Source: a virus
IMG/VR virus record: IMGVR_UViG_3300013132_005564
Span: 1 to 64,000 of that record
Length of the DNA stretch: 64,000 nt
Strand: one strand, 5' to 3'
The notes beneath the pieces were generated by a model. That model was not told where the DNA came from. It saw only the letters and a list, made by a program, of their open reading frames with translations, and did not search any database. Numbering within the stretch: the first letter of the stretch is position 1; every line of letters starts with the position of its first letter. The translations under genes and the position numbers were made by a program. Shown here in pieces: positions 13,644 to 63,300 of this stretch.

Positions 13644-16600
13644 ATGAATCGTCGTTTATTATTGACCGAGGACATGATGAACCAACAAGTTTTTGAGGAC
13701 GAGGACTACCTCTACAAGTCCCTCAACGGCCAGATCAACGTCGATGAGGCGCAGGGTATCGTTGAGGCCTTCGTCGCCGGCGTCGGCAACAAGGACTCCG
13801 TGGGTGACATCTGTCTGCCGGGGTGCTTCACGTCCTCCCTCAAGCGCAGGAAGCCGCGCGTCGTCTGGGGCCATGACTGGAACTCCCCGATCGGCAAGGT
13901 CCTCGAGATCTACGAGGTCGGGCCGAACGATCCGCGCCTACCGGCAAAGATGCGCAAGGCGGGCATAGGTGGCCTCTACGCGAGGGTGCAGTTCAATCTG
14001 AAGGCGGAGAAGGGCAGGGAGGCTTTCGCCAACGTTTCGTTCTTCGGCATGGAGCAGGAGTGGTCCATCGGTTACAAGACCCTGGACGCGGTGTTCGACC
14101 CGGTTCAGACCGCCAATCTCCTGAAGGAAGTGGAGCTCTACGAGGTGTCGCCGGTTCTGCACGGAGCGAACCAGCTGACGGGGACGATATCGATCAAGGC
14201 CGACGAGGCCGAGACGCAGATCAAGGAAGGGAAGGGTCCTTGCTGGCCTGGATACAAACAAGTCGGCATGAAGAAGGGCAAGCGCGGGGGGATGGTCCCC
14301 AACTGCGTGCCCGTCGATGGCAAATCGCTCGAGGACGAGTGTTGCCCTGAAGAAAAAGCGGCCGACAAACCGGCCCTGCGTGATCCCAAGGGCGGACTCA
14401 CGGCGGCCGGTCGGGCCCACTTCAAGCGCACCGAGGGTGCGAATCTGAAACCGGGCGTCAGGGGCGCGGCCGACACGCCGGAGAAAATGCGCAGGAAGGG
14501 TTCGTTCCTCACCCGCTTCTTCACCAACCCGAGTGGTCCGATGAAGAAGCCGAACGGAAAACCCACGAGACTCGCCCTTTCGGCGGCGGCGTGGGGGGAG
14601 CCGGTGCCGCAGAACGCGTCGGACGCATCCGCGTTGGCGGCGAAGGGTCGTCGTCTGCTGGAGAGATACGAGAACTCAAAGAAGAAGAAGAAGGACGACG
14701 AGGATTCGATCGAGAACAAGAACCACGTCGCGGCGATCTACGCGGCCGCGAGCGCCCCGCAAAACGAGACGTTCGGGAGGGCATCGCAGCTGACCAGGGC
14801 GTTGGCCGCGAGGTTCGGCGGCCCGGTGAGGTTGGTGACGGCGGACAACGACATAGCGATCTTCGAGATGGGCGCGGGTCAGTCGACGGAGACGATGAGG
14901 GTCGCCTACCACTACGACGGGGATGAGTTCATGATCGGCACGGCTCAGCAGGTGAAGCCAGAGACCGTCTACATCCCGATAAACCAGACGACTTCCGGGC
15001 AGACCGTAGGCGGAGTCACCGCCGGCATATCCGCGCAGCACGGGCACCACGCCGGACACCAGGGTCATTGCTGCCCTGGGTGCGGACACGGTGGGAGTTG
15101 CGACGCTTCCGTCGCCCTCTCGCCGGGCGATGACCCGAGGATTGCGTTCGTAAAACTCAAGTCCCTGGGCGACCAGCTGAATTTCAAGGTGGTCCCGACC
15201 GACGGGGGATTCATACTGGAGGGGTTCGGCCTCCTCAACGAGGAATCCCAGGATTTCGTGGCGAAGAAGGTCGCCGAGGACATGGAGAAAAAGTTCCTGA
15301 ATCCGATCGGGAACGTTTCCCGAAGGAGCCTTGGCGTCCCCGACATCAGAGGATTCGTCCGTGGTTTCAACGTGGACATGAACCCGCTCACCGCGAGGGA
15401 CGCCGACCTCGACAGGCTGGTCCTGGAGGGCAACCCGCTCATCAACATGGGCCGCGGCATCCCCGACCCCACGCCTTTCGGTTCGGCCAACAGACCGTCT
15501 TTTGATCTGCCCGCCGCACGCGGGGACTTGGATCTCGGCGCCCCGAGGATGATGCCCGCCGTGCCCGACGTGCCGCGAAGGGAACCCGAGGAGGTCCCCG
15601 AGCCCGTCAAGCCAAAGGCGCCGCCGGTCAGGCCTCCGCGCAGGGAGCCGTCAAGGCCCGAGAGGGAACCGACAAAGCCGCCAGTCCCCGTCCCGACGAG
15701 ACCCGAGAGGGAACCGGCAAGGCCGAACACCCCGGTTCCGGTTCCGGTTCCGGTGCCAACGAGACCCAGGGAACCGGTCCCGATCGGCGAGGCGAGCAAC
15801 GACAATTTCGCCATAGCGGCCATGGGCGGCGGAAAGCGCACGCCCAAGCAGATAGCCGAGGCGCTGGCGAGCGTCGATTCCGAAAAACGCGAGAGCAGGC
15901 AATCAAGGATGATCCGTCTGCGCGACAGCGGGTTCGACGAGATGCGACGCCTCATGCTCCTCGACGGACCGGATGCCGGAATGGCCGATCCGAACAGGAA
16001 CGGACGCCGTGGACGCGCCGTGCGAATCGATTCTGACGAAACGCTCGAGGAAGTTCTCAGGAGAAGAAGAAGCGGACAAGACATCTCGGACATGACGGAG
16101 GACATTGACCTGCCGAATCCTGGAGACCGTTCCCTCACGGACCCAACCCCTGGGGATGCAGGAATGGCGGGTCGCCCTAGAACGAGGGAGGAAAGCGCTG
16201 ATCTTGGGAGAAAGATCTGGTTGGCAAGGACTCACGACAGGCTTTCGTTGGAGGAGGCTGGCCGTCGCCACGGAGTCTCAAGAGAGGAGGCCCGTCAACT
16301 TGAGCTGAGGCACCAGAAGTACCTGCGAGATCTCGGTGTCGACCATCCGAACAGGGTTGGCAGAGCGACGATCGACGACGCAAACAGTGGTCTGACCGAC
16401 GCCGAGGCCGACCTTCTCCGCAGGCGCCTTGACGGCGAGATGCTCGAGGAGGCCGCCGAGCGACTTGGCACAGACAGGTTTGCCGTGAGAAGGATGGAAC
16501 AGCTTGCTCTCGCAAAACTCAGGAACAGAATAGTGCAAGGTGACGCCGACGCTGGCATGGCCAGGGGCGATGGAGGCAGGGCGGTAGAAGCCGACCGCCC

Positions 16601-19600
16601 AAAAGCGTCACGGGTCGCAAGACCCGAAAGCCCGGGAAAGCGAAGAATAAATAAGGTTGACCCGACCTTCAGCCAGATCTACGAGTCGCTGAGGGATTCC
16701 GGCCCGGACGGGCTCACCGCACCCCAGAGATTGCGCGTGGCGGCGATGATCCGTCTGCGTGACTCCATCAACAACAAGATAACGGCGATGCGGGTCGCCG
16801 GATCCAGGAGGCGCACGTCCCATCTTGGACCGGAAATACAGGAGCTAAACGACGGGATCAAGGGGGCGCGGGAGACGGCCGCCGAGGTCGCCAGAGTCGT
16901 CGTCGGATCAAAAGACGACTTCCTCAATTCCGCCATAAAAACCGCCAACTCAAAACAGGACGACGACCTCGACGCGTCGCTCAATTTCAGGTCGTTCGAC
17001 GCCCTGTCGGACGCCGGCGGAGACGTCGCCAAGGCGTCGCGAATCCTCGGCATGGACGGGGATGTTGTGCTTCTTCGGGCGGCGGCGCACTCAATGAGGC
17101 TGGCCGCCTCCGCTGGACCGGCAAGGCGGCGCATCGCGAGACTCTCCGAGAAACTCAGGCACAAGCTCACCTCTGCAGAGTCCGTCACGCTGAGGATGTG
17201 GATCAACGGAGCCTCGGACTCAGACATAATCGACAGGTTCCCGGCGTTTGCCGACGAGAGGGCCGTCGTCGCCCAGAGGATAAACGCGTTGAGGAAAATA
17301 GGAATAGATCCGACCTCGCCCGAGATGCTGTCCGAGGTCAAGTCCGGAAGGATCTTCTACGACGAGTTCGGTCTCTTCGCCGAGTTGGTGGACGACGCAG
17401 GGCAAACGACGCTGAACCGCCTGGGGGACGGACCGATGGGCGGAATGAACAAGGGCGTCCGTCGCGTGGTGTCCGCCGATTTCGGCGACGGGAGGCGCGA
17501 CTACGCCGTCACGAGGACGATTTCGCGCGACAGGGCCAGCTACGGAGACGAGCTCGTGATGCTGGTTCCGATCAACGGCGACGACGAAGCGACCGTGTCC
17601 ACGCTCATTGGCAGGGCGCTACTCGGGGGTGACTTGCGGGCCTCCAGCGTGGAGTTCCCCGCCGTGATCCGAAGCTCACGCGGGAGGGTTGTCGGGGTGA
17701 CCGACGCATCGGGGAGGAACGTCCCCCTGTTCGGAGAGAGGTCCATAAACGCCTCCCAAGCCCTGGTGGCGACCGAGTCGGCCGCGGCGGAGGAGAGGGC
17801 GTCCGAGCTGATCAAATCAATACGCGACAACGACTCCGCGTCGAGGATAAAGATGGACCAGGACGTGGAGGTCGCCGGAAGGCGCTCGACCAGCCTGAGG
17901 CTGGCCCTCGATCACCTCCTGCAGACCGGGGATTGGATCGGTGGCGACCTCGGCGTGACCGGCCGCGTGCCGGACAGGGACGTGATGTTCTCGTTCGGAC
18001 TGGACGCCGACGACGACGGGAGCCCGATCGTCCCCAACAACTCAACCCAGGACGAGTTCAACGCGAGGGCGGTCTCCGATTTCCTCAGCGACAAACCGGG
18101 CGCGACCGAAGGGGAGATCGACGACTACCTGTCTCGCGTCAACGCGTCGAGGATCGCGCAGGTCAAGAGAAAGGCCGAACTCGCGGCGAAGGAATCGGAT
18201 CGTCTCCGTCACATCAGGGACTCCGCGGAGGAACGCCGTTTGCAAAGAGTGATCGACCTGGAGACGCTCGACCAGAGAATCGCAGAATCGCTCGCGGAGG
18301 AGACGCGGTTCATCTCGTCGCTGAGCGGGGAACAACTCTCCCAGCTGTCGAGGGGCCAGGGCGGGTTTGCGTATGTCGTCCACAAGGGACCGGACAGGCT
18401 CAAGGACGGAGTCCTCGACCCGAGCAAGTCGGCTGGCGTGGACAGGTCGGTCGCCGAGGTCGCTGGCCAGGGCGACACCCGCGGAGCGAACAGGCAGTAC
18501 ATCCAGCGCTTCGTGCAGTCCTACGACAACAAGAGACAAATGGTCTCCTCCGCCGACGACATGATGGCGAGGATTTCGCGCGGAGAACGACAGCTGACCG
18601 TGGACCAGTCGATAAGAAGGTCGCTGAAGGCCGCGTCCCCGCTGATCGCGAGAATCGCCTCCGACTCGGGTTTCCTCAACCTCGACGAGCTCCCAGAGCA
18701 GAAAATTTCCGAGGTCATCAGGGATTTGACGAGGTTCTCCGAATCCCAGCGGGACGACCTCGCGCGCTACGAGGGGATCATGGGGGCCATACGGCGGTAC
18801 GGCGGCACGAACGCCGACCAGCTCCTGTCGGCGGAGGCCGACCCGATCTCGGCCCTGAGCTCACTGAACTTCTATGGCAGGTACGCCGACGCCGACCTGC
18901 CGCGTGACGTCGTGCAGTTTGAGGATGGTTTCGTTGACAACCTGACGAGGAGGTGGAATCCGACCGACGAGGAAATGCTGGAACGCTGGAACGGGTTGGG
19001 CGGAATCCGCGGCGGTGCGTTCGTGGTCCACGGCAAGAGGGATTCCCAGATAGTCAGCGGAGGCCTGCTCGGTCCAACGTCGGAGGCCCAGATAATTTCG
19101 CCACTGAAGCCGTTGGTCGGGTTCTCCACCCCCGTGAGATTGTACGGACAACGGCAGGACGACGACCCGGAGTCCCTAATCCCGATGCTCGGCCCGGCGC
19201 TCGCCGCGAGGGCGATAAAGATGCACAAGAGGGACGGCGAGATAGACATCGAGAGACTGCTCATCGACCCGGACCTAGCTCCAGACGGCTTCGTCGGTTA
19301 CCCCGACGGCGCCTCCGCCGGAATGGCTTCCGCGGACACGACGGACGACGAGTCCCGGACGTACTCGGACTATCGGAATTCGTTGACGCCCCGAGGAAAA
19401 TTGTTCGACGCGCGACTGAGCGGCCTACTACGGGAAGACGTCAATTTCGATCAAATGATCTTCAACGAGGACGACGCGAATTTCTTCAGAAAAACTTACT
19501 CGGAATTAGTTGAGGACAGAAAGAATCCCAGCGAAGCGGACATCTTGAGGCTCGAGGCGCTGATCGACCGCGCCGAGGCCTTCTATCTCCCGTTCCGTCG

Positions 19601-26756: not shown

Positions 26757-26809
26757 CTAATGTCAACTTGCACTTCCTTCATTGGTAGTGCTCTACAATG
26801 GGAGGCGCC

Positions 26810-28603
26810 ATGAAAATTTTGCGGAATCAGGACACCAAGTCGGCGACGTCAGAATACGTCCTATCGCTCGCAGAGCTCCAGGAACTGGAGGAAAACGAGC
26901 CGGATGACGACCTCCTGCTCCCGGTCCCGAAGGGGGACCGGTTCTACGCCAAGCAAGCCATTGACGACGTCCTCTCCGGTTACATGATGAGTTCCAGCGC
27001 CGTCTACGACGGCATAATCATCCACGACGCAAAGACGATCGGCCCAGAACTGGCAAAGGACTTGCGGGATGCGCTGGTCTTCGTCTGGGAGCAAAAGGCC
27101 CTCGGGGCCACCATCGGCGGCGGCAAGCCGTCGGGTGGCGGCTCCGCCGAAGACATGATCGACAGGGACGGGGACGGATACATTTACGACGGAACCCCGC
27201 AGGAGCAAAGAGTTCCGTACAAGCGCCGCGACGGCAAACCGGTCGGCGGGGGTGCTCCTGAGGGGATGGAGGCGCGACGCAGGCAGTTCGTGCGTGGCGA
27301 GGCCGCCAGGCAGGGCGTGCAACTAAACCGGGGCCCGAAACGATCGGAGCAGGAGAGAAGATTCAGGACCGAGGCGAGAGCGCGATTCGACAGGATAGCG
27401 CTCGAGGGTGAGGGATTCATTCCCGCCGACAGAATAGAAGCGGGAGATAAGCGCAATTTCGAGAACCGCATGGGTGACGTCAACGCGGGAAGAGTCGACG
27501 ATCAGGGCAGAAGCGGTTTCGGTTACGGTGGGGAGCCAGCTCCGTTCAATCCGGGACAGCGAGGCAAAAGACCCGACACCTCCTTCCAGGACAACGAGGA
27601 CGCCCGCAACCAAGGCAAGCGCCCCGCCGGCAGGCCCGTGGACAGGCTGCCCGGTGCAGGCGGACCAAGCGGGAGTCTCAACCCCGGACAACGAGGGGCC
27701 AGACCCGACACGTCCAATCAACGAGCGGAAGACGCTCGCAATCAAGGCAAGCGCCCCGCCGGGAGACCGGTCGACAGACTGCCAGGAGCGGGCGGTCCCG
27801 GCTACGACGAATCTTTCGGTAGAAACGAAAGTCGTCGTCAGCAGGGAATGCGTCCCGCGGACACCTCGAATCAGAGAGCGGAAACGGCTCGTCAAGCTGG
27901 GTCTCGTCCGCAAAGACCGGTCGACAGGCTTGGTGCGGCAGGTGGCCCCGGTTACGACGAATCTTCCAATAGAGCTGAGTCCGCCAGGATGCAGGGAATG
28001 CGTCCTGCCGATACCTCTTCGCAGAGGGCGGAAAGCGCAAGACAAGGCGCCGCTCGTCCGCAAAGACCGGTGGATCGTCTGACTGGTCCCGGTTACGACG
28101 AATCTTCCAATAGAGCCGAGTCGGCGAGAATGGGTAGGTCTCGTCCGGCCGACACTTCTTCTCAGCGGGCGGAAAGCACTAGGCAAAATCGCTCACGCCC
28201 ACAGGGTCCTGCCGACAGAATTTCTGGCCCCGGTTACGACGAATCTTCCAATAGAGCCGAAGACTCGAGAATGCAGGGTCGTCGCCCGACGGACACCTCC
28301 AACCAAAGGGCCGAGTCATCCAGACAAGGAGCGTCGCGCCCGAATCGCCCAGTAGACAGACTTGGCGGATCCGGAAATCGCAGGGCCGACGGATCTAGCA
28401 ACGCGGCCGAACGAAACAGAATGAATAGATCTCGTCCGGCGGACCGTTCTTCGCAACGAAACGAAGACGCTAGACAGGGACGCGCCGCTTCGGGAACGAG
28501 GAACGCCCAGCAGAGACCGCCCGACAGGATCGACACCTCGGGCAACAGATCTCGTAGATTCGGCAGAGGGCAAAGCGACTACCTATACGGTGGCGACGCG
28601 TAA
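26810..28603 (+). CDS. Disordered Arg/Gly/Ser/Gln-rich repeat protein with a DRDGDGYIYDGT motif
   Basis: GGAGG then ATG at 26810; KALGATIG followed by a DxDGDG motif; the C-terminal 350 aa are tandem repeats. Confidence 0.8.
   Translation: MKILRNQDTKSATSEYVLSLAELQELEENEPDDDLLLPVPKGDRFYAKQAIDDVLSGYMMSSSAVYDGIIIHDAKTIGPELAKDLRDALVFVWEQKALGATIGGGKPSGGGSAEDMIDRDGDGYIYDGTPQEQRVPYKRRDGKPVGGGAPEGMEARRRQFVRGEAARQGVQLNRGPKRSEQERRFRTEARARFDRIALEGEGFIPADRIEAGDKRNFENRMGDVNAGRVDDQGRSGFGYGGEPAPFNPGQRGKRPDTSFQDNEDARNQGKRPAGRPVDRLPGAGGPSGSLNPGQRGARPDTSNQRAEDARNQGKRPAGRPVDRLPGAGGPGYDESFGRNESRRQQGMRPADTSNQRAETARQAGSRPQRPVDRLGAAGGPGYDESSNRAESARMQGMRPADTSSQRAESARQGAARPQRPVDRLTGPGYDESSNRAESARMGRSRPADTSSQRAESTRQNRSRPQGPADRISGPGYDESSNRAEDSRMQGRRPTDTSNQRAESSRQGASRPNRPVDRLGGSGNRRADGSSNAAERNRMNRSRPADRSSQRNEDARQGRAASGTRNAQQRPPDRIDTSGNRSRRFGRGQSDYLYGGDA
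27545..28560 (+). repeat. In-frame tandem repeats of about 141-150 nt (47-50 aa)
   Basis: GG(T/C)TACGACGAATCTT at 27800, 27950, 28091, 28232; unit GYDESSNRAES.R..RPADTS.QRAE..RQ...RPQRPVDRL. Confidence 0.9.
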
Positions 28604-30832: not shown

Positions 30833-33800
30833 GTGACTCGCCTCGAACGACACCTGACCAAAAGCCCGGGTGAGAAGTCGCTCGGACCGACCATCGGTGG
30901 TGCACCGAGGAACCTGAATCCGTTCACTGCAAGGGACGCCGACCTGGACCTGGTGGTCCTTGAGGACATCGAGACGATCAACTTCGGTCGAGGCGTCCCG
31001 GACCCGACACCCGGCGGAGCCGCGGAGACGCCGTCTGCGCCAAGATTGAGATCGTCCCTCTACGCGAACGACGAAAATTTCGCCGTCGCGGCGATGTCCG
31101 GCCCGGATCGTCGCCGGAGTTTCAGTGAGGAGAAAGACCCAAGCGACATGAGCAATCCGGACGGTCACTTCCCGCGAGAATCCGGACCGATGTGGAAAGA
31201 CACGAATTTCACGGCCCTGAACCTCGCGCCGAGGACGCGGAGAGGCGCCAGCCCGGCTTCGGTGAACACGTATCTCCACGCCGAATGGACCGAGCCGTAC
31301 TGGGACGCCGTCAGGGACGACACGGGGATATGGAACTCCCCGCCACCGCCCGAGATGGAGGTCGAGCGCGCCATCTACGACGCCATGAAGAGAGAGACGA
31401 TAGATGTCGGCGGGTACAACGTTCCGTTCCCCAGGCATCCGAAGGAATCCGACTACCACCAGGAGACCGACTCGACGGGTGCCACCTTCACGCACCTCCG
31501 TGCCACGCGAAGTTTCCCCTTCCGCGACAGGGAGAACTCAAGGTGGACGGACGGACACCCGTTGTACCACGCGACACCGACCGGCTCGTTGCCGAAGATA
31601 CTCGCGGAGGGGCTGGTCGCAAGCGCCGAGCGTCAGTTGTGGTTCGGGGCGTCACCGACGGTGTGGAACGAGCAGTTCCCGCACAACGCCCCCCTTCGGC
31701 TGAAGTCACCGGTCAAGGGAATGTCGTTCCTGCGGATCAGCCCGACCGACGCAATGAACGAAAGGCTCTCCCTCCTCGCAAGGGTGAGCGATGTCGATCG
31801 AGCCACGCTTCCCGGCCATCTGGCGATCGATTCGGCTGGAAATCCAATCGGGCCCAGGGATTCCAGGACGCAACGGGCGGTTGGCCTCTACGGCGACGCC
31901 CTATTTTTTGACGACGTCAAGATACCGGGAGAGAACATCGAGGTCCTGAACCAGAACGGAGAATGGATCCCGTTGTACAAAACGGACCTTTCGGACGTGG
32001 TTTTTGACCCCTCGGACGGCGCCGACGCGGGCATGGGCAACGAAGGCGGCCCGAAAGGGAAAAGGATTTTCAGCAGGTTGTTTCGCGCGAGGGACCGCGG
32101 TGATTCGCAACCACCGCAGGAAGTCGTCCCGACGCCAAAAAGTTGGAAGAGCAACTACTCGAATTCTTACGGGGGAGACGAGTTTGTCAAGGGGGAACAG
32201 AGGCTGGAGAGAATAAAGCAGCAGGGTTTGGCCGCATCGGGCGAGTGGAGAAAGATCCACAACGACCACTACGACTGGTGGGCCTTCCCGATAGACCGAG
32301 GAAGCGCGTCGTTCGGCGAGACCTTCAACGTGGCGGGCGATCCGCTCGAGAGACTGAAGAAGGACCCGGAATTCCTCAGCAGCCTGGCCAAAATCATGGA
32401 GGTGCAGGCGGCCGCCCTCGGCTGGTCCCTCTACGAGGGCAAGTATTTCGACCGGCTGGATTGGGACAAGGGTCAGGATTGGAACATGGCCTACCCGACC
32501 AGACTTTGGAAAATGACCAGATCCGCCCAGATCTTCGGCCTTGAGCGGGAGTTCGAGTCTCTGCTGGACCTCCAGGAGTCCCTCGAGGCGGGGGGGATCG
32601 TGTTCGGCAACCATCGCTCCTACTGGGACAACCCGGGGACGGTGGACGACGTACCCTCGCTCGGAAAATCGTGGACGGAGAGGGAGGATGAACGAAAGAA
32701 AACACAAACGGCGAGTGGCGCCGCCAGCTGGACCAGCCCGTACCGTTCGCAGCCCGAGTATCCCAAGCAGGGTTCCGACGATTCGCAAATGACGCTCCTG
32801 GAGGAGGATCGGGCGTGGGACGCCTATGACAACTACGAACCTCCGGTCTTCCCGGTCGTGTCCGACGCCGAGGAGCTGGCCGACATCCTGTCGGAACCTG
32901 ACGAGGTGATCGAGTTCGGTTACCCGTACGAGCGAATAGACAAAGAAACGAGACAGCTGATCGCCGACGACATCTTCTTCGCCGTCTCCCTGTTGATGGA
33001 CGGAGAGTTCCCCGACGAGGAGTTCACGGACAGGCTGGAGTCCGCCGAACAGATGAGGCGATACGCGGACGAGCAGGAGGGTCTGTACCCGGACGACGGG
33101 GACATCCTGTACGCCCTGGCCGACGCGCTGGAGAACCCCGTCTCGTTGTACGAGGACGCCGTCTACGAATCAACCGACGGCGAGGCCGGGATGGGGCGCA
33201 AGCCGTCGCCCGAGGTGCGGGCACTCGTCGAACGGGTGGCGGAGATGCACAACGGGGGGAAAAGCGCCACGCAAATCGCCGAGGAGTTGGGGATCACGCG
33301 CTACAGGGTGCACAATTACCGAACGATTGCGAGACGACGGGGATTGCTGACTTCACCCCGTCAACGCACCGCGGCAGAAATGAATGAGTTGATTGGCGAG
33401 GCTACGAGGTTGTACAACGAGGGGAAAACCCGGCCGGAAATGGCGAGGGAAATGAATCTTCCCGTGAGCACGATCAACAACCTTCTGCAACGAGCAAACG
33501 AGCGCAAGCTACTTCGCAACTACAACCCTCGAGGGTCCGGAAACTTCAAGAGAACCCTCAGAACCCCCGGAAACATCGCCGCCGCCGCCGACAAGTACAG
33601 GCAGGGAAAGACGACAGCTCAGATCGCCGAAGAACTTGCGTTGACGGAAAGCTCCGTTATCAAACTAATTGGGGAGGCGAGACGCCTGGGGCTGGACGCG
33701 GGACCCCGTCGCTATCGAACTTCGCCCGAGCTTGAGGAACTGATGCTGGAGGTGGCGATCAAGTACGAGGAAGGAAAGCTAATGCGCGAAATTGCGCAGG

Positions 33801-47675: not shown

Positions 47676-50425
47676 CTCGCAGAAGGATAGGTTCCAAGCG
47701 CACGAGCCGAGACTCATTCGTCGACGACAAGACCGACGCTGCCCTTTTTTCGGTATCGGAGCTCGCCGAAACCGTGAGGACGAAGGTCATGCGACCGATC
47801 GGCGCCGGTCCGCTTCCGCCACCCCATCTGGTGAGAAACGCGGACTCCGACCCGTTCATATACGAGGGAATACCGTGGATCAATAGAGGACGAGGCATCA
47901 TCGATCCGACCCCGGGCAACTTGCAACCACTCAACAGAAGGCTGAGGAGGGAGGCGCGCGCAAGCATGGGCTCGCCGAGCAGGAGCAGCACCTTCCGCAC
48001 CAACGCCAGAATCACCTACGGCGATTCGGACTCTCCGCTCGCCGCGATGTCGTGGGGCGAGATATCCACCCGTCAGGGGAACATAATAAACGCCGAGGAC
48101 TCGCGTCAAGCCGTCAAGAAGGCCGAGACCAGGGTGGACGCGGTTCTGGGCAACAGGCCGGCGACCATGGCCGAAGCCGTGAGGAATCTCAAGCGTCTCG
48201 AGACGATAACGAACGGTGGGGCGCCGAACGGTCGAAACTTCCTGCTGGATCTCCCCTACTTCGAGGCTCAGATGCAACCGGAACTGACGACGCTCAGCCC
48301 GCGTTTCGCGGGTGACGCCACGCAGATGTCGCCGTACGACTACGGCATCTACTACGCCCTCGCGGGGAACATGATCGATTTTCCGGAGGCCTTCGAGAAC
48401 GTCCATCTGGTGATGGCGACGGACAACAACCCCGACATCAAGGGCGATGACGACGGGGTCGGAGGAAGCGCCATGGTTTTCCCGATCTACACGGCGCTAA
48501 AGCCCCAGGCGCTTGAAGACAGGAGAGTCGGGGACATGGATGCCAGGTCCTCCCTAGGCGTAAAGGACATGTCCAAAATCGGCGTCGCTTTCTTCGGCAA
48601 CGACGCAACCGCCTCGGGCGGGAGAATACCCGCGGTCATCCTGATGCCGATAAACAGGTCGCCAGAGCAGCAGAAGGCGACGTTCACTCCGACTGGTTTG
48701 ATCGCGGCGTTCGGCACCTTCTTGTCGCAGGCGCTCGGTGTGCAGGCGCAAGCCCCCGAGATTCCTCTACCCACTCCGGAGGACACGGTGGACAGGTACC
48801 TGGACATGCTCAGGGACTGGACGAGGATATTCAAGAAAACCGGGTCGGTGCCGAGGTTCCTGATGGACGGAGTCGCCTCGAACGTGATCATGGGATACCT
48901 GCTGGAGGCCGAACAGCTGGAGGAGAGGATCTCCCAACTGAAGCAGGTGACGGGAGAAGGGGACTCGCAGGTGCGCCTGCAAATGGTCAGGGACCTGGAG
49001 GACCGGCTCGACAAGATAAACGACGAGGCGAGGCAGGCCTACGCCTACGCCGTTGCGCTCCACGAGGTTGGCCACGTCCTCGACTACGTCGGTTCCTACA
49101 AATCCTCGTCCGCGTACGCAAACGCGACGAGGGCGGCGTCGTTCGGATTGAACTCAAGCATAGAATCCACGAGGGACATCGTCGCCCTGCGAGCCTTCAG
49201 CGCGGGGGTGGTCCACCCGGCGACGCGGGACATGACGCAGGCGATGTCCAGAAAGTTCATGAAGGACACGCTCACCGGGGTCCTGAGGAACGAGGACGTG
49301 CGCAACCGCATTCCGGAGATGATTGACGACATCCAGAAAATCGTGGACTCCCTGAACGCCAACCACCAATCGATCACCCAGCTCGTACCAGGCGGCGCGA
49401 CGCAAGACGTGAATGCGTGGGCGGAGGACCTGCTCAACCGTGACACGGCGACGATAGGCACCTCCACCGCCCAGGAGATAGTCCGGCCCATCATCAGCGG
49501 CGGATGGGTTCCCAATGCCCTCATTGCCAACCCGAGCCGCCTCGAGTCGCTGGCGGACTCGTCCATGGACGAAATCAAGGCGCTGGGTGCCGAGAGCGAG
49601 CTCCTGAAAGTGAAACCCCTCGGAATCACCGCGTACGACCTATACAAGTCAAACGTGGAACGAATAATCAAGCCGCTGGAGGAAAAAATAGCCAGACTAC
49701 CGAGCCCTGTCGGCAGGAGCTTGGCCAAGGCCGTGGTCTCGGCGGTCGTCCACGAGGCGTACGTCAAGATGCTGCAGGGTGCGATGGAGAGCCTCGCCGA
49801 GACGCATCGGGATGCGGAGGCGAACGCCCAGTCGTACTCGTACCTGCGCTCCTGGATCAACCAGCAGACGATTGACATGGCGAATTTCCCCTTCGGCGGG
49901 CAGCGCAAGCTGATAACCGACATGTCAGCGTCCAACCCCGCCGCGGTCAGCGAGTTCATGACGCTGTACGGCACGACCCAGGGCAAGCCGTGGTTCGACG
50001 ACCAGGGCAATTTCAGCGACACCAAGTACCTTCAGTACATATTCTCCAACCTGACCCAACCGAAGGGCGTTGACATAATGACCGCCATGAAAATGGTGAA
50101 TTCGTGGTTCACCGAGAGCGAGACGAACGGTTGGAAAGGCCTGCCCGACGATCTGATTCAGCTGGTGCGAGAGGCGGTTCCGCACATCACCGAATACGCG
50201 GGACCAGCCGACTACAACCATGTTGTCCCCCTGCCCGTCGGGGAGTTCGCCAGCAACAAGGAGACCTACGCCGAGCTACACCCGATAATGCTCATGAAAC
50301 TCGAGAATCTGATGCGCCTGCTCTCGGAGCAGGAGCGCGAGGCGGTCGAGAAGCTCCACCAAGCGATGATAGACGCCGCCAGAGGACTGATAAAATCTCA
50401 GTACAGACCTGGAGGCAGGCCGTGA
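47672..50425 (+). CDS. 917-aa protein with the DPTP anchor and a zincin-like HExxH domain
   Basis: ATGA coupling; anchor at 47813-47914; AAM at 48041; ALHEVGHVLD at about 49055 and distal EYAG...ETYAE. Confidence 0.8.
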   Translation: MTRRRIGSKRTSRDSFVDDKTDAALFSVSELAETVRTKVMRPIGAGPLPPPHLVRNADSDPFIYEGIPWINRGRGIIDPTPGNLQPLNRRLRREARASMGSPSRSSTFRTNARITYGDSDSPLAAMSWGEISTRQGNIINAEDSRQAVKKAETRVDAVLGNRPATMAEAVRNLKRLETITNGGAPNGRNFLLDLPYFEAQMQPELTTLSPRFAGDATQMSPYDYGIYYALAGNMIDFPEAFENVHLVMATDNNPDIKGDDDGVGGSAMVFPIYTALKPQALEDRRVGDMDARSSLGVKDMSKIGVAFFGNDATASGGRIPAVILMPINRSPEQQKATFTPTGLIAAFGTFLSQALGVQAQAPEIPLPTPEDTVDRYLDMLRDWTRIFKKTGSVPRFLMDGVASNVIMGYLLEAEQLEERISQLKQVTGEGDSQVRLQMVRDLEDRLDKINDEARQAYAYAVALHEVGHVLDYVGSYKSSSAYANATRAASFGLNSSIESTRDIVALRAFSAGVVHPATRDMTQAMSRKFMKDTLTGVLRNEDVRNRIPEMIDDIQKIVDSLNANHQSITQLVPGGATQDVNAWAEDLLNRDTATIGTSTAQEIVRPIISGGWVPNALIANPSRLESLADSSMDEIKALGAESELLKVKPLGITAYDLYKSNVERIIKPLEEKIARLPSPVGRSLAKAVVSAVVHEAYVKMLQGAMESLAETHRDAEANAQSYSYLRSWINQQTIDMANFPFGGQRKLITDMSASNPAAVSEFMTLYGTTQGKPWFDDQGNFSDTKYLQYIFSNLTQPKGVDIMTAMKMVNSWFTESETNGWKGLPDDLIQLVREAVPHITEYAGPADYNHVVPLPVGEFASNKETYAELHPIMLMKLENLMRLLSEQEREAVEKLHQAMIDAARGLIKSQYRPGGRP

Positions 50426-53456: not shown

Positions 53457-56400
53457 CTCAACCTTCTCCAAGGTCGTTGACTCGGAAACCGGGACGACCT
53501 TCGCCGTGCTCGTGGCGTCGTCTGACGGGATTACGGCTCACGGTTCCATGAAACAGGGGGTGGAGTGGGCGACGTGGGTGAACAGGGGCGAGAAGTCAAT
53601 GGCCCGGATCGTTCGCTCGCTGGACCCCTCGCTGGAGATCACCAAGTTCGTCCCACTCAACGAGGAGAACATTCTCCTGAAGTCGTCGTCCTTCGGCACC
53701 ACGACCGCAAAGGAGCTGAGGGTGCATCTCGAGAGAAAATCGCTGGGCGAGGACCTGACGAAGGCCGCGGATCCCACCAACCCGCCCCAAAAAACGAACC
53801 CCGAGGGGGTGGATGAGCACCAGCCGGAACCGGAGTACGAGTCGCTCAGTTCCTGGATGATGTCGGACGTGGCGGTCAGCGAGTTTGACGTGCAGATAAA
53901 GCAGACGGCCGTGCACTTCAAGGCAATGCAGTTCATGCGAAACAGGAGGTTCTCGTCTTTCCTGTTGTCGGTTAAACAGACGAACGCGTCGCTCGTGAAC
54001 GGTAGTTGGGCGACGCGCCCGTCCCTCGCCCCCGCCATGGGCGACGTGCTCAATTCGTACGACCGAAAGACGAAGTTGCACGCCTCGGAGTCGCTCGGGT
54101 TGTCTGGGTACTTCAACAAGGCCTTGCCGATCGGCATGCGACAGCTGCCGCCGCCGCACCTCGTCAGAAACGCAGACAACGACGCCTACATCTACGAGGG
54201 AATCCCGTGGATCAACAGGGGCCGCGGGATACTCGATCCCACACCTGGCAACGCCGCCAGCGCCATCAGGAGTGGGGTCAGGGCCTTCGGCGGGAGAATG
54301 ACCGACATAGTCGACAGGACGAACAGGATTTCAAGACTGACCCGGAACGACGCCGAGAGGATGCGTCGTCTCGATCTGGTGCCGGCATCCAACGACATCG
54401 CCTCGTTGCTGCCGCAGGGCGAGGAAACTAGAGCCGCCATGGGCAGGATGCGCAGGAGACTGGCCAGTCTCGCTGACTCCGTCGCGCCGTCCGAAAGGAC
54501 GAGGGGGGACGGCGAAGAGGTCCTGACGAGAAGGCAGGCGAGGCGCAACGAAGAGGCCCTCGCGAGGGCCGGAATCAACCCCAGCGCAACAAGCTCACCC
54601 GACGAAGAGACCGCATCCGCCGGCATGAGGAAGGTGACCGGCGACGATCCGCAGGTGCCCGAAGTCGTCAATCTTTCCGAGAGAAGAAACGCGCAACCCG
54701 ACACGGAACTGACCGGGCTCGAAGAGACGGAATCCGGCAGGGTCGAGAGAGGCGCAAAACCCAGGTCCGACGGCAACGGGATGCTGAAGAACCTCCTGTC
54801 GAGACTCTCGAGGGGGTCAAAGCGAATCAATTCAGCAGATTCGCCCAACCCGCCAGAACTGGATGAGAGCGACGATTTGCCCGACTACGACGGTCCGCAG
54901 GTCGTGAAAGTATCCGATGATCCATGGCAAATGGATCCGGCGACGAGGGACATGCTTTTGGCGGCACTGAAGGACGCCGTTCCGGCGGGGACGTACGCCA
55001 CCTTCAGCTCGAGATTCGGGGAGGACGACCTGGACTGGCCCAATTTTTCGCCATCCGAGCAGTCGTCGCTGTTGCGCGAGCTGGGGTACCGCCGCGACGA
55101 ATTGCTCGACATCGTAACGGAGCTGATGACTCCCGAGTTTTCGGCAGACAAGGACTACAGAAGCGACGGGGTCGTCACCCCGGAATCGGTCATTGAGGCG
55201 ATCCGGAATGACTTCGTGTCGTTGAGGTCGGGCGGAGTGAACCTGTACGCCGACGTGATGGCGCTCGTGGCGATCAACGACATCCTCTCCTCGAAGGACC
55301 ACGAAACAGAGGCAAGGGCGTCCGCATGGAGGATGATTGACAACAGGAACAGGAGCGTCGTGTCCAGGAGGGCGGACATTCAGCGCAGGGACGTGAGGGA
55401 GGCGAGCTCCAGCAGAATTTCTGGGCCGGTCGGAGAAAGGACCGTGATCTCACAAACGGGGGGTCGGGGGTCCGACTCTTCGGTCCGCCGGGTCGCCCTC
55501 AGCAAGCTGAACCCGAGGGTTCTGGTCCTTGCCACGGTTCCCGTCGCCCCCGGCAGGTTGCTGAGCGACTACTCGGACGAAGAAAGGGCCGCGCTGCTCT
55601 CCAGCGCGACGCAGATGAGGGCTTCGATAGCCGAGCACCTCGCGAGGAAGATGGGTCTGCCGAGCGACACAGAACTATCCGAGGACGTCATAGCGAACTG
55701 GATGGCCAACAACTCGGACACGGACGGGTCAAAAATAGGCGTGTTCGCCCACAACCTCATCGTCCTCGACGATCTCGCAATCGCAGTCAATTCTGGCAAG
55801 CCGGGGAACGACGAATGGAACGCCCTGACCATGCCCGCGAGAGACAAGATAATCAGCAACGCAAACGTCGGATCGCGACCCGAGGTCGCAAAGACCAACC
55901 AAAGCCAGCGACGCCGCGGGCGGCCGACGAAATCGCCGGCTCCGCCACTTCCGCCGACCCCGCCAAACCAGACACCGCCGCAAACACCGGCAGGTCGCAC
56001 GCGCCCGCAGATCGGAATGACTCCGCCGAAGAACCGGATCGCCGACTGGCAAGACCCAACGCAGCCGGTCCCGGAAACGGTGGACGCCTCAACGCAGATG
56101 GTCACGATCGCCGGCGAGGACGGAGCGGAGAAGCAGGTCTTGCTCAGCTCCCTCGGCAGGCCGAACCAGTATGACTTCTCCAACACCGTTTCGGTCAAGG
56201 GGATTTCGTACGTAATGGAGAACCAGACCGGCCTGTACAGGGACCCGGTGACCGGGTTGTTCCTCGACGACTACAGCGGCATCCCGATAACCCTCGGCAA
56301 AACGGTCCCCCGGCCCAGGGAACTGGAACAGGTGAACCAGAAGAGGGGCGCACCGACGGTCAGCTACCCATCCATCCAATTGTCCGAAAAAAACAGCCAA

Positions 56401-58929: not shown

Positions 58930-59345
58930 TGTCGGACTCGGTCAATCAACTCACCCCGCTTGAGGTATCCGAGTACGTGGACGAGTACTCGGCGGTTGCC
59001 GAGATAGCAAAGTACCCGCCGTTCAGTCTGCCTCGGTCACCGAGGGAGTCCGAATTCCTGCTCGACTTATCCCGCGAGTTCGACGCGTTCGTCAACGGCG
59101 ACAAACCGTACGACTCCTACCAGTCCGTCCTTGACGAGTACGAGCCGGAGTTGGTGAGGGCGAGGGCGTGGAAGTCTTTGGGTTACGATCCGGTGCGCGC
59201 AACACGGGAGGCGATCAAGAAGGAGCTGGAGGAAACCGGGCTGGACCCGAAACACATGCCATACCGGACAGACAACGTGTTCGACTCCCAAGCAAAGGTT
59301 TTCGTAATTTTCGCAGAAAAAATCGTTCCCTGGGAGTTCCTGTGA
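58926..59345 (+). CDS. Small acidic protein coupled to the 1827-aa gene
   Basis: ATGA overlap; 139 aa, rich in E/D/Y/F. Confidence 0.7.
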   Translation: MMSDSVNQLTPLEVSEYVDEYSAVAEIAKYPPFSLPRSPRESEFLLDLSREFDAFVNGDKPYDSYQSVLDEYEPELVRARAWKSLGYDPVRATREAIKKELEETGLDPKHMPYRTDNVFDSQAKVFVIFAEKIVPWEFL

Positions 59346-60340: not shown

Positions 60341-63300
60341 ATGGACGAATCAATTCAGCCTGGGGATTGCTGTCCGTTGTCTGACGATGACATAGAAACA
60401 AAGGACGTCTCGTTCGGTCCGCGAATGGTGAGGCCGGACAGTTTTGATGCATACGTTGACAAGGAATCAGCCAGGGCCAGGGCGAGGATGCTCGGTTGCA
60501 TCGGCATCAGGCAATACGGTTCAACCAATGGCGGGACGGTGTGGATGCCGTGCAGCAACGAGTCCGACTACAGACGGGTGACGGGCACCAACTTCTCGGG
60601 TCGCAGGCAGAGGCGAAGAATGCTGAAGGCCGAGCTGGGAGAAGGCATCTCGAAGAAGGCGCTCGGTGCGACCATAGGCATGGTTGGCGGAAGAGTCAAC
60701 ACGAACCCGGCAACGGCCATAGACGCCGACCTTGACGGATTGGTTCTGGAGGGTCTGCCATTCATCAATCTCGGTAGGGGCGTGCCGGACCCGACGCCTG
60801 GCGGCACAAACGAGCTGTTGCCGAACGCAGACAACAGGAATTTCGCCATGGCGGCAATGTCGAATCGCAGGGGGCCGAGGATCTCGCCCCCCGGCGAAAT
60901 TGAGCTTTCCAGGGATGGCGACGACTCCGCTTCGCCCGCGACGAGGATGCCCAGCCAGAGGGCAACGCGCTCCAGAAAGAGGGAGACGACTTTCGCCGAT
61001 GTGGACACAGACAGGTTTGACGAACTGATAGCGAGGATTGCGGACGACGTTGCGAGTTCAGAGGTGGCCGCGGATGTCTCCTCGGACGAAGCTGTCGGCA
61101 AGTTGCTTGACGACGTCAGGGGCATCGCATCTTCGGTGGCGGAGGTTGTTGACGGGCACATTGACTCCCGTCCCCGAAGGAGCACGTCGACAAGGGACGC
61201 GGCCGAGGAGACCTCAACGCGAATCACGGCGAAGGCCATTGGGACCGTGATGGAGATCTCCAACAACCCGACGCAGTCGCTATCGGAAAACGAGAATCTC
61301 ACGAGGCTCGTGACCTCATCCATAATCGAGCGTGGCGCCGCGGAAGTGGCGTCGTTGACCGGGAAACCTGGGATATGGGCATTCCTGGTGCAGGCGATGA
61401 TCGGCGGCGCCTACGCCACCCAGAGGGCCTGGGAGTTGCTTGCCAGAATTTTCGGCGTGGAGAACAACACCGGTTGGGTTCCAGAACCGACAGGCAGGTT
61501 CGCCGAGGCGCTCGCCCCCAGCCTCGCAAACGAGCGGAAGAAAGCCGCCAGAAGTCGAGCCCTTGACTCCTCCGGGAGGGCCATTGACGCACTGCGCCAG
61601 GCTGGATTCGCGATATCGGACGCATCCGAGGTTCCGGCGATAGCGGACGACATGGCCTCGGCGCTGGATTCCCCGGAGCTGATTGAGTTGCCGGGCGACA
61701 AGAAACCCGGGCCGGCGCCGACGCTTGACGCTCTCGACGAAATAATCCAGAGGATCAACGCGACGACCGGCAAGACCAGGCCGCGGGGCGCGCGCAAGCC
61801 CTCGTACTCCAAGTACAGGGGGACGAGCGAGGAAATACTTCGAAACAGGATGGACATAGCGGGCGTGCCGAGCGGCATAGACGATGTGTACCGCACCAAC
61901 TCGGTTGACGTCCCGACGGACAACGAGCGACTGGCAGCCAAGCTGATCTCTACGCCGGGACGAAATGGCCAAGGCGCGCTCAACGCGGAACTTCTCTACA
62001 GGGCGCTCTCGGACAGATCGGCCCTCAGGTCGTACGTGTCGCCCGTTGATTCACCCTTCGTGGCGCAACTCGCGACGCTGATAGAGGAGGGGAGGCTGCC
62101 ACGTCTCGCCGACGCCCTGCTGGAAATGTCGCCGCAGACGGTGGAAAATTTCCTGGCCGTTCCGCCGCGACCAATCATCTCTGCGGCGAGGGCCGCGCGC
62201 AAGACTCTTCGCCCGTCCGGGTCGTGGATGGCGAGAATATCCAACGACCCCTTTGAGACCGCCTTCCACATGTTGAGGGCCAAGGACTACCACCTTTCTT
62301 CCATATTCTCCGGCGCCGACAGCGGAAAGCTCACGGATGCCGTAGACGAGCTGGTCGGCAACAACGTATCCGAGACGGCAGCGATATTCGGGTCCTTGGT
62401 CGCCTTGAACAAGGAAAGGCTCGCGGAGGCGTACGACGGATCGCAGAGCGTCGCCCAAGGCGGCAACCGCCTGCTCAGGACCGCGAGGAACCTGATCGCG
62501 TCGGCCACCGAGAACGACAGCGTGTGGGCGGCGACCCGGGACTCAATCTCCGACGTCACTGCGGCGATGCTCGGCGGGGACTCCGCCGATGCGGCGATGT
62601 CCCGGCAGGTGGTCAGGTTCGGGAGCAACTACCCGAGGCACAGGAGGAAGACGGGGGACTGGTCGCCGATCGCCAACAAGATAAGAGACGGGGTCAAGGC
62701 CTACAGGGCAAGGTACGGTCCGATTGCGTCAAACTCCGCGGATCTCAGTCGCTTCGTGAATTTTTCCTACCCCGAGCTCTTGAGCGAGGCCTCCGAACTG
62801 ATCGATTTGATGAAGGAGAAGGTCGAGTTCGGGTCCCTAAAGTTCGAGGACTACGCGCGCAACGGGTGGATAAACCGGGACACGGCGGAGCTCGACGTTG
62901 ACGAGTTTGACCCGACGAACCTGGAGACGATCTTCGACAAGGGTTCGCAGATGGGTCTCTTCAAGTCGATCGGCGTGGTCCTCGTGGCTGCGTCAAGGGT
63001 GGCCCCGTCGCGCGACGAGAGGGAGGCCGTCCTCGACCTGATGGATGAGGTCAACGAATGGACGTTCACCGCCCTGCCCCTCTACTCGGAGCCGCGGTCG
63101 GTGACCGACAGGCGCCGCGGGATATTCCCGTCGTCCGCATCGGCCGACGCAGGAATGACCGTCAACAGGCCCGTGCCCGACGACGTCCGGCAAACACTGA
63201 TGTCCCTCACTCGCCCGTACGACTCAGGACAGACGCAGGGTCTGCCGACGATCAGGATGCAGAGGAAGCTCGTCGAGAAGGCCAATGAGCTCATGAGGAA

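What the first reader, a model, noticed from the sequence alone, without database searches (positions are those of the whole stretch)
15381..60799. Shared ~32-aa anchor motif (DADxD..EG.P.IN.GRG..DPTP) near the front of five giant proteins: candidate capsid-targeting signal
Seen at 15381-15476 (ARDADLDRLVLEGNPLINMGRGIPDPTP), 30917-31012 (ARDADLDLVVLEDIETINFGRGVPDPTP), 47813-47914 (VRNADSDPFIYEGIPWINRGRGIIDPTP), 54145-54246 (VRNADNDAYIYEGIPWINRGRGILDPTP) and 60704-60799 (AIDADLDGLVLEGLPFINLGRGVPDPTP). A shorter version (DRDGDGYIYDGTP) is at 27155-27199. Each is preceded by K-x-(L/M)-..-IG (KSLGPTIG, KALGATIG x2, KALPIG, KVMRPIG, KFLNPIG). In all five full copies the next linker is the AAM variant (NFAIAAM, NFAVAAM, NFAMAAM, PLAAM, TRAAM). 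The proteins are otherwise largely unrelated. Inference: a portable tag that docks cargo in the prohead; the DxDxD loop may bind Ca2+.
Basis: partly seen in the sequence, partly recalled or inferred. Interest (0 to 1): 0.85.

Follow-up and report, generated by a model that had tools for sequence, protein, structure and literature searches.

The report
Shared leader tag on phage head polyproteins
Five otherwise unrelated giant proteins, encoded between the head protease and the capsid gene of an uncultured lake phage, share one short and strongly conserved sequence near their front ends; it is most likely a "load me into the capsid" label, but nobody has tested this.

Summary
The core GRG..DPTP occurs exactly five times in the 84.5-kb contig. 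All five are in frame, near the front of ORFs A, D, F, H and J (917-5330 aa). BLASTP finds nothing else shared among those five proteins.

- **Selection acts on the protein.** Identical residues use different codons at 39-61% of sites, and the tag is the best-conserved 37-aa window in the F, H and D orthologue alignments.
- **The tag is new and narrow.** It has no Pfam, NCBIfam or PDB match. A profile search of 1.84 billion representative proteins gave 37 strong hits, all from metagenomes. Each hit has one copy near the N-terminus, at an offset fixed for its class.
- **It sits in the head module.** In five related phage records, all 20 full copies lie between the HK97-type (S78) prohead protease gene and the HK97-like capsid gene. 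In four of the five records, one copy is in the protein that carries the protease.
- **Copies within a genome look alike.** In several genomes they resemble each other more than they resemble their orthologues elsewhere.

This fits a common docking partner inside the procapsid, but no packaging, cleavage or Ca2+ binding has been shown. Two exceptions exist: giant protein E lacks the tag, and one complete relative has a protease protein without the full tag. AlphaFold2 gave no fold.

Earlier notes of this scan (e1-5782814, e1-5968243) saw the same phage family, and the "DPTP tag", on other DNA.

The parts
11367..13586 (+). Portal protein fused to a MuF-like domain. It opens the head module and is a candidate docking partner.
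   Evidence: Pfam Phage_portal 1.4e-50 and Phage_Mu_F 9e-10.
13746..14201 (+). S78 (HK97-type) prohead serine protease domain at the N-terminus of giant ORF A (13644-26756).
   Evidence: Pfam Peptidase_S78 2.4e-11, aa 35-186, and PHROG head maturation protease 1.9e-27. The fusion is conserved in 12 relatives.
15291..15476 (+). Tag copy in A (aa 550-611): KFLNPIG ... ARDADLDRLVLEGNPLINMGRGIPDPTP. It lies about 365 aa after the protease domain.
   Evidence: Conserved at the same place in A-type orthologues.
15816..15824 (+). First linker after the tag in A (NFAIAAM), following a proline-rich spacer.
27095..27199 (+). Short variant in B: KALGATIG ... MIDRDGDGYIYDGTP. It has only the first half of the tag and is followed by about 450 aa of arginine-rich repeats.
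30875..31012 (+). Tag copy in D (aa 15-60): KSLGPTIG ... ARDADLDLVVLEDIETINFGRGVPDPTP.
31088..31096 (+). First linker after the tag in D (NFAVAAM).
47783..47914 (+). Tag copy in F (aa 38-81): KVMRPIG ... LPPPHLVRNADSDPFIYEGIPWINRGRGIIDPTP. This is the second flavour.
   Evidence: It is the most conserved 37-aa window of the F orthologue alignment.
48041..48049 (+). First linker after the tag in F (SPLAAM).
54118..54246 (+). Tag copy in H (aa 225-267): KALPIG ... LPPPHLVRNADNDAYIYEGIPWINRGRGILDPTP. This is the second flavour.
54433..54441 (+). First linker after the tag in H (ETRAAM).
60656..60799 (+). Tag copy in J (aa 106-153): KALGATIG ... AIDADLDGLVLEGLPFINLGRGVPDPTP. J runs past the window end and is 5330 aa on the contig.
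60851..60859 (+). First linker after the tag in J (NFAMAAM).

Best explanation
The element is a two-part leader module. The first part is K-[AS]-L-G-x-x-I-G. After 10-30 residues comes N-[MT]-[ND]-P-x-T-A-[RI]-[DN]-A-D-x-D-x-x-[VI]-[LY]-E-G-[IL]-P-x-I-N-x-G-R-G-[VI]-x-D-P-T-P. It is shared by the head-module precursor proteins of an uncultured lake-water phage lineage with an HK97-type capsid. Most likely it is an address label. It would bind one common site inside the assembling procapsid: the scaffold (delta) domain or inner face of the capsid protein, the portal-MuF ring, or a conserved core protein. That would co-assemble the protease-bearing polyprotein A and cargo proteins D, F, H and J into the head. 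After assembly the leader would be cut away from the cargo at flanking sites. Candidates are K|[SA]-L-[GN] upstream, a pattern also present at the predicted scaffold/mature junction of the capsid protein and near the N-termini of the protease protein and portal, and the special x-A-A-M linker downstream. Shown here: the motif, its protein-level conservation, its fixed N-proximal positions, its restriction to this lineage and to the protease-to-capsid gene interval, and its genome-specific flavours. Inferred: that the proteins are packaged, the binding partner, the cuts, and any metal binding by the DxDxD-E half.
For: (1) Context. The gene order is TerL, portal-MuF, S78 protease fused to A, then B to J, then an HK97-like MCP with a coiled-coil N-terminal domain. 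The synteny is conserved in 44 related loci. (2) The one protein with a strong prior for being inside the prohead, the protease carrier, bears the tag in 13 of 13 A-type sequences. (3) All 20 full copies in five records lie between the protease and MCP genes. (4) The profile search of 1.84e9 representatives gave only 37 strong hits. Each has one copy at a class-specific N-proximal offset in proteins of 850-6391 aa, and there were no hits in unrelated proteins. (5) Constraint. The tag is 63-71% conserved against 29-36% for whole F, H and D alignments, and no other non-overlapping 37-aa window equals it. Synonymous sites are scrambled. (6) Genome-specific flavours. Within-genome paralogue identity is 0.76-0.88 in five genomes. 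Between distant genomes, same-class identity (about 0.63) is no higher than different-class identity. This is as expected if all copies track one partner. (7) The leader/cargo boundary is special: 5 of 5 first linkers are AAM. K[SA][LMI][GNTQ] occurs 19 times against 4.7 expected, at portal aa 17, A aa 25, MCP aa 109 and in the leaders of B, D and J (and L), and is conserved in orthologues. [quoted passage not shown] The C-terminal targeting signal of the HK97 protease (Duda et al. 2013) I cite from memory; that paper was not held.
Against: There is no direct evidence: the lineage has no cultured member and no match in GenBank phages, so no virion proteome exists. Giant protein E carries 12 of the same linkers but no tag, and its tag-less N-terminus is conserved family-wide. 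In the complete relative G004, the 789-aa protease protein lacks the full tag and only two proteins carry it. The tag therefore cannot be the only route into the head. The tag lies 10 to 600 residues from the N-terminus, unlike known short terminal CTS peptides. AlphaFold2 gave no confident structure, either for the tag alone (pLDDT 52) or within A aa 11-640 (pLDDT 36). The window's own clade has two flavours (A/D/J against F/H), which needs two sites or a tolerant one.
Confidence: 0.5

Rival explanations
1. The tag mediates co-assembly of the tagged proteins with each other or with a dedicated conserved core protein (C, G, x2 or I). It would nucleate an inner body or ejection complex rather than dock on the capsid shell or portal. 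The proteins are still head-internal, but the partner and the logic differ.
For: Untagged but highly conserved proteins are interleaved with the tagged ones: x2 is 72-92% identical across relatives, G 50-70%, I 46-73% (55-73% in all but the most distant lineages), and the C-terminal half of C 64-76%. Genome-specific flavours fit any common partner. B and the post-capsid ORF L carry KALGATIG plus the DxDxDG half on long basic tails.
Against: Nothing singles out one of these proteins, and none has a recognisable family. The protease carrier needs access to the shell's scaffold domains in any case.
Confidence: 0.17
2. The tag is a substrate-recognition or processing-control element. It would be an exosite through which the head protease (or the HExxH protein F) recognises polyproteins, or a propeptide that sets the order of cuts. 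It would not be a localisation signal.
For: The tag is flanked by candidate cut sites (K|[SA]LG upstream, the AAM variant downstream). It sits in the same chain as the protease in A.
Against: E has 12 linkers and no tag, while F and H have one or two linkers and do have the tag. Tag and linker number are therefore uncoupled. The linker peptide is rewritten between lineages (AGM, PSGSM, GPVGAM, SDSGAM, DTGRM, ISGRMG) while the tag stays constant.
Confidence: 0.12
3. The tag is a metal-dependent switch that acts in the finished virion or at infection. Ca2+ bound by the D-x-D-x-D...E loop outside the cell would lock or release the proteins, or trigger self-cleavage at the invariant Asp-Pro bond, as in Ca2+-dependent Asp-Pro self-processing modules of RTX proteins (recalled from memory).
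For: D31, D33, E38 and D51-P52 are invariant in 40 sequences. The profile weakly retrieves Excalibur, FG-GAP and cadherin Ca2+-repeat proteins through its DxDxD part. The short variants in B and L read DRDGDG, a textbook DxDxDG.
Against: There is no match to the Excalibur or EF-hand models or to any solved structure, self-processing modules included. The sixth-position glycine is not conserved in full copies. If the leader is removed at maturation, it is not present at infection.
Confidence: 0.1
4. The tagged proteins are not virion components at all. They would be late cytoplasmic or secreted effectors, and the tag would be a shared host-target-binding or export element.
For: Packaging is unproven. 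Most of the sequence has no known domain.
Against: One tagged protein begins with the prohead protease. All copies sit inside the head-gene block in every record examined. No signal-peptide-like or known export motif was seen. The tag is absent from all non-phage proteins searched.
Confidence: 0.05

Closest known systems
Phage T4 capsid targeting sequence (CTS) of IPI, IPII, IPIII and Alt, removed by prohead protease gp21 (Mullaney & Black 1996, as summarised in PMC7411985)
   Same: A sequence shared by several otherwise unrelated head-internal proteins. It lies in a leader that precedes a protease-type site, and is proposed to bring cargo into the prohead and then be cut off.
   Different: The T4 CTS is about 10-20 residues at the extreme N-terminus and works with a T4-type protease and a separate scaffold core. 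Here the module is 45-60 residues, lies 10-600 residues from the N-terminus, has no sequence similarity, and works with an S78 protease and an HK97-like capsid protein that carries its own scaffold domain. Function is untested.
Long N-terminal propeptides (111-130 aa) of SPN3US/phiKZ-like ejection proteins, and the C-terminal propeptide of the SPN3US protease gp245 (PMC7411985)
   Same: Long removable leaders on abundant head-internal proteins. The protease itself is thought to carry a targeting propeptide.
   Different: No shared conserved motif is described among those propeptides. Their cleavage rule is A-x-E, and they belong to a different phage lineage and protease family.
HK97 maturation protease gp4 C-terminal capsid-targeting signal (Duda, Oh & Hendrix 2013; cited in PMC7411985 and PMC9024508; content recalled from memory, paper not held)
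   Same: The same protease family (S78) and a closely related capsid protein (E about 1e-50 to HK97 gp5). The targeting element lies on the C-terminal side of the protease domain.
   Different: In HK97 it is the protease's own C-terminal tail and only the protease is loaded. Here the element is internal, is followed by thousands of residues of cargo, and is copied onto four further proteins.
P1 DarB N-terminal packaging signal (PMC9024508)
   Same: An N-terminal signal that brings a 250-kDa anti-restriction protein into the capsid and is portable to a reporter.
   Different: It sits in the first 30 residues of one protein, and no conserved shared motif is reported. Function is shown experimentally there and not here.
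Polyvalent proteins of phages and conjugative elements (Iyer et al. 2017, PMC5512222)
   Same: Giant multi-domain proteins encoded in portal/MuF-type head modules, predicted to be packaged and delivered with the DNA.
   Different: That work describes domain content. I saw no shared N-proximal tag in the passages read, and the word 'linker' does not occur in the text. Most modules here have no known domain.
DxDxDG-type calcium-binding loops (Excalibur PF05901, EF-hand, FG-GAP)
   Same: The D-x-D-x-D then hydrophobic then acidic spacing of the first half. The short variants in B and L read DRDGDG.
   Different: No model match. The glycine is not conserved in full copies. The invariant second half, I-N-x-G-R-G-x-x-D-P-T-P, has no counterpart.

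Membership tests
T4-type capsid targeting sequence | Short (about 10-20 aa) peptide at the extreme N-terminus | tested here: not met
   The conserved module is 45-60 aa. The K-x-L element begins at aa 15 (D), 38 (F), 106 (J), 225 (H) and 550 (A). Class-specific offsets are kept in relatives.
T4-type capsid targeting sequence | Removed by the prohead protease at its consensus site | not testable with these tools
   Only candidate sites are seen: the AAM first linker in 5 of 5, and K|[SA]L[GN] at 19 observed against 4.7 expected. No proteomics exists for this uncultured lineage.
T4-type capsid targeting sequence | Sufficient to carry a foreign protein into the capsid | not testable with these tools
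   Needs a bench experiment.
T4-type capsid targeting sequence | Works with a T4-type (gp21) protease and a separate scaffold core | tested here: not met
   The protease is Peptidase_S78. The capsid protein is an HK97 gp5 relative with its own N-terminal coiled-coil domain.
HK97-type protease targeting tail | Element lies C-terminal to an S78 protease domain and is needed for its encapsidation | tested here: inconclusive
   In A the tag lies about 365 aa after the protease domain, not at a C-terminus. In relative G004 the protease protein lacks the full tag. The requirement cannot be tested.
Excalibur / DxDxDG calcium-binding loop | Match to the family model (PF05901 or EF-hand models) | tested here: not met
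   No Pfam hit at E up to 10 on six leader segments. No NCBIfam hit.
Excalibur / DxDxDG calcium-binding loop | D-x-D-x-D-G pattern with a downstream acidic ligand | tested here: inconclusive
   D3, D5 and the +10 Glu are invariant, and position 1 is D or N. Position 6 is R, G, L, K, P or A in full copies and G only in the short variants. The profile gives weak multi-repeat hits to Excalibur and FG-GAP proteins.
Encapsulin cargo-loading peptide | Short terminal peptide that binds the inner face of an HK97-fold shell | tested here: inconclusive
   The shell is HK97-fold. K-A-L-G-x-x-I-G recalls the L-G-I-G-S-L type peptide, but that is from memory only. The element is internal, and binding is not testable.
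Polyvalent proteins (Iyer et al. 2017) | Multi-domain giant proteins in a portal/MuF/terminase head context | tested here: met
   Portal-MuF, TerL and MCP flank the block. D has an HTH array and A has protease, DUF6321 and a sigma-70 region 4 domain. This applies to the carrier proteins, not to the tag itself.
Ca2+-dependent Asp-Pro self-processing module (RTX proteins) | Sequence or structure similarity to the solved module | tested here: not met
   The profile of the tag against all PDB sequences gave no hit at E up to 10. AlphaFold2 gave no model to compare.

The most novel reading that the evidence does not exclude
The tag is a general, portable, two-part encapsidation label for HK97-type capsids. 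It would let one phage load more than a megadalton of modular cargo, 14,207 residues per set of five precursors. Its D-x-D-x-D...E loop and invariant Asp-Pro bond would make docking or release depend on Ca2+. The label would then read the difference between the low-Ca2+ cytoplasm, where heads assemble, and lake water, where virions wait. That would be a new kind of metal-gated cargo anchor.
Probability: 0.1. Interest if true: 0.85.

Novelty: new variant of a known kind. Interest (0 to 1): 0.6.

Why it matters
Phages that carry proteins in the head need a way to sort them into the procapsid. Only a few such signals are known (T4, P1, the HK97 protease), and all are short terminal peptides found by experiment. 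Here a much longer motif marks the protease carrier and four cargo proteins in a phage lineage that devotes about 60 kb to giant, linker-punctuated head-module proteins. The motif is almost invariant and unrelated in sequence to the known signals. If it is the address label, it gives three things:

- a sequence handle for finding packaged cargo in metagenomes;
- a defined peptide to test with HK97-like shells, a favoured nanocontainer chassis;
- a starting point for asking how megadalton-scale cargo is loaded and later cut up.

If it is something else, it is still one of the most constrained elements in these proteins, and it has no known family.

Tried and rejected
- **Family and structure libraries.** Pfam (E up to 10), NCBIfam, PHROGs and all PDB sequences gave no match to the tag. 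The ESM Atlas gave no usable look-alike.
- **GenBank phages.** tblastn with F and with the J leader found no match.
- **AlphaFold2.** A aa 11-640 with a 13-sequence alignment gave pLDDT 36; even the protease domain was not folded, so it says nothing about contacts between tag and protease. The tag alone with 40 sequences gave pLDDT 52 and no secondary structure. This fits an extended peptide that folds on binding, but it is not evidence. No fold search was run on these models.
- **DNA repeat or gene conversion.** Rejected as the cause of similarity within the window: synonymous sites are scrambled.
- **D-E fusion by frameshift**, which would have explained E's missing tag. Rejected: a separate small ORF and an AT-rich gap lie between them.
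- **Aligning the capsid protein's N-terminal domain to HK97** to fix the maturation cut. No alignment was obtained. The K103|S104 site of HK97 is from memory; PMC10275583 confirms only the 103-residue scaffold domain.
- **Duda et al. 2013.** Not held.
- **Literature searches** found no description of this lineage.
- **Sequencing runs.** No RNA holder was listed. The strong holders are lake-water metagenomes, two of which may be the source.
- I repeated the computation from the stored files without typing sequence.
- **Protein-protein docking** (multimer prediction) is not available here.

Full report
**What the window is.** The window is the first 64 kb of an 84,498-bp phage contig with 61% G+C. 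CheckV rates the contig about 57% complete. It comes from lake-water metagenomes.

The genes run as follows.
- The minus strand from about 821 to 11112 holds a neck/tail-completion protein, two ParB-like proteins, a PAPS-reductase-like protein, RuvC, an exonuclease and the large terminase.
- The plus strand then carries a portal fused to a MuF-like domain (11367-13586).
- Giant ORF A (13644-26756, 4370 aa) begins with an S78, HK97-type prohead protease, followed by DUF6321.
- After A come B, C, D (1763 aa), E (3781 aa), F (917 aa), two small ORFs, G, H (1827 aa), I and J (5330 aa, running past the window end).
- The major capsid protein lies at contig 76665-78011 (PHROG major head protein 2.9e-59). 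It is a close relative of HK97 gp5 (E about 1e-50) and has a coiled-coil N-terminal domain.

About 62 kb of giant ORFs therefore sit where HK97-like phages keep only a protease and a capsid gene.

**The observation.** GRG..DPTP occurs five times, always on the + strand and in the frame of A, D, F, H or J, and nowhere else on the contig.
- Five of five first linkers are AAM, against 11 of 43 elsewhere.
- A further short version (KALGATIG..MIDRDGDGTIFDGTP) sits in the 745-aa ORF just after the capsid gene, outside the window.
- BLASTP all-against-all shows the tag region as the only similarity among the five proteins.
- The similarity is at protein level. F and H share 32 of 37 residues, yet 18 of 31 degenerate codons for identical residues differ. 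Overall nucleotide identity among copies is 50-76%.

**Distribution.** Degenerate-pattern scanning of IMG/VR gave 44 loci on about 30 uncultivated viral contigs, with several copies per contig. A 40-sequence alignment (A2) has invariant D31, D33, E38, N44, G46, R47, G48, D51, P52, T53 and P54.

A profile of this alignment was searched against 1.84 billion representative proteins. It gave 47 hits at E up to 1e-3, of which 37 were strong.
- Each strong hit has exactly one copy.
- The offsets sort into the five classes seen here: about aa 10-63 (D-like), 33-84 (F-like), 100-160 (J-like, 5200-6400 aa), 213-273 (H-like) and 520-575 (protease-fused A-like).
- The ten weak hits match only the DxDxD part, several times each. 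Where they are identifiable, they are Excalibur, FG-GAP or cadherin-type repeat proteins.
- All cluster members examined are metagenomic; the only names are automatic IMG labels on a few members, and none links to a cultured phage.
- GenBank phages have no match.

Pfam, NCBIfam, PDB sequences and the ESM Atlas hold nothing like the tag.

**Context in relatives.** The order TerL / portal-MuF / protease-A / B / C / D / E / F / x1 / x2 / G / H / I / J is conserved.
- Complete relatives are 137.8 kb and 174 kb and have terminal repeats.
- In five records, all 20 full tag copies lie between the S78 protease gene and the capsid gene. The two weak short-variant hits lie just after the capsid gene.
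- Thirteen of 13 A-type sequences keep the tag about 365-420 residues after the protease domain.

**Constraint.** In alignments of F, H and D with their orthologues, the tag is 69%, 63% and 71% conserved. The whole proteins are 29%, 36% and 30% conserved. No other non-overlapping 37-aa window reaches the tag's value.

Copies within one genome are 0.76-0.88 identical in five genomes. Between distant genomes, same-class copies (about 0.63) are no more alike than different-class copies. Synonymous sites are scrambled in the window, so this points to co-evolution of all copies with one genome-specific partner rather than recent gene conversion.

The window's clade is the exception, with two flavours.
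- A, D and J read DADLDxLVLEG...GRGVPDPTPGG, followed by NFAxAAM. They are the many-linker polyproteins.
- F and H read LPPPHLVRNADxDxxIYEGIPWINRGRGI[IL]DPTPGN. They have one or two linkers.

**Flanking cut-site candidates.** The giant proteins are punctuated by D-G-x-x-A-G-M: 12 A[AG]M sites in A, 12 in E and 16 in J. Distant relatives use PSGSM, GPVGAM, SDSGAM, DTGRM, GISGNM or ISGRMG instead, and the methionine is kept in all of them. The tag stays constant while the linker is rewritten.

K[SA][LMI][GNTQ] is about four times over-represented, with 19 observed against 4.7 expected. It falls at these places:
- portal aa 17;
- the protease protein aa 25 (Y-K-S-L invariant in 13 sequences);
- the capsid protein aa 109 (SPEFK-[SA]-L conserved in six), where a scaffold/mature junction is expected;
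- the leaders of B, D, J and L.

From memory, HK97 gp5 is cut after K103, before S-L-G. PMC10275583 confirms only the 103-residue scaffold domain. If both candidate sites are used, the tag ends up on a 65-175-residue peptide excised from both sides.

**Mechanism.** The best reading is a removable address label that docks precursors, including the protease carrier, at a common site in the procapsid. In function it resembles the T4 CTS, the SPN3US propeptides (PMC7411985) and the P1 DarB signal (PMC9024508), but it is unrelated in sequence, longer and internal. I give this 0.5.

The main rivals are:
- a partner among the conserved untagged core proteins (0.17);
- a processing-control element (0.12), weakened because E has linkers without a tag while F and H have the tag with few linkers;
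- a Ca2+-dependent switch or Asp-Pro self-cleavage (0.10), which rests on resemblance only;
- not virion-associated at all (0.05).

**Limits.**
- Nothing was measured: no packaging, no cut and no metal binding.
- E, and the protease protein of relative G004, show that the full tag is not obligatory.
- Both AlphaFold2 runs failed to give confident models.

**Novelty.** The tag is a new sequence family confined to one uncultured lake-phage lineage. The idea of a capsid-targeting leader is known. This scan had already met the same family on other DNA (e1-5782814, e1-5968243). I therefore class it as a new variant of a known kind, with interest 0.6.

Noticed in passing
window 13644-64000 and contig to 76333; relatives P0006, P0009, P0018, P0025, P0035, L052: The inter-module linker is lineage-specific but always keeps a methionine. 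It is D-G-x-x-A-G-M here, and PSGSM, GPVGAM, SDSGAM, DTGRM, GISGNM or ISGRMG in relatives. The tag stays constant across these lineages.
   Followed up: partly
window 11415-11426, 13716-13727, 15159-15170, 27095-27106, 30875-30886, 53737-53748, 60656-60667; contig 76989-77000: K-[SA]-[LMI]-[GNTQ] is over-represented, 19 observed against 4.7 expected. It falls near the N-termini of the portal and the protease protein, at the expected scaffold/mature junction of the capsid protein, and in the leaders. This makes it a candidate S78 cleavage site.
   Followed up: partly
window 36120-36345: A 63-codon ORF follows the end of D. After it comes an AT-rich, promoter-like gap (TATAAT-like) before E. E is therefore a separate gene, not a frameshift extension of D.
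   Followed up: partly
window 36330-47675 (E): Giant protein E has 12 A[AG]M linkers but no tag. Its first roughly 1000 residues are conserved across the whole family at 31-46% identity, unlike the variable rest.
   Followed up: partly
window 47672-50425 (F); L052 6460-11601: F contains an HExxH motif (HEVGH), and the E-like protein of relative G004 contains HEAGH. These are possible zinc metallopeptidases that could be a second processing enzyme. No Pfam or PDB match was found.
   Followed up: partly
window 17892-19262 (A aa 1417-1873) and 46146-47525 (E aa 3273-3732): A and E share one module of about 460 residues (24% identity, E 3e-14). This is an example of module sharing between polyproteins.
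   Followed up: no
window 26798-28603 (B) and contig 78157-80394 (L046 2157-4394): B and the ORF after the capsid gene both have KALGATIG plus a DRDGDG loop, followed by hundreds of residues of Arg/Pro/Gln-rich repeats. They may be basic, DNA-associated internal proteins.
   Followed up: no
window 60458-60562 (J aa 40-74) and 59168-60265 (I): The J leader holds a DUF3721 domain (1.7e-6) before the tag. By eye, protein I has a similar Cys-containing segment, and it also matches two PHROGs of unknown function.
   Followed up: no
L052 2256-4625 (relative G004): In this complete 137.8-kb relative, the protease protein is only 789 aa. It has a KFDGDSDGF remnant and duplicated proline-rich repeats where the full tag would be. 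Only two proteins carry the full tag.
   Followed up: partly
window 3470-5941: A PAPS-reductase-like gene is flanked by two ParB-like genes on the minus strand. A C5 DNA methyltransferase lies at contig 81616-82974. Together they may form a DNA-modification module.
   Followed up: no
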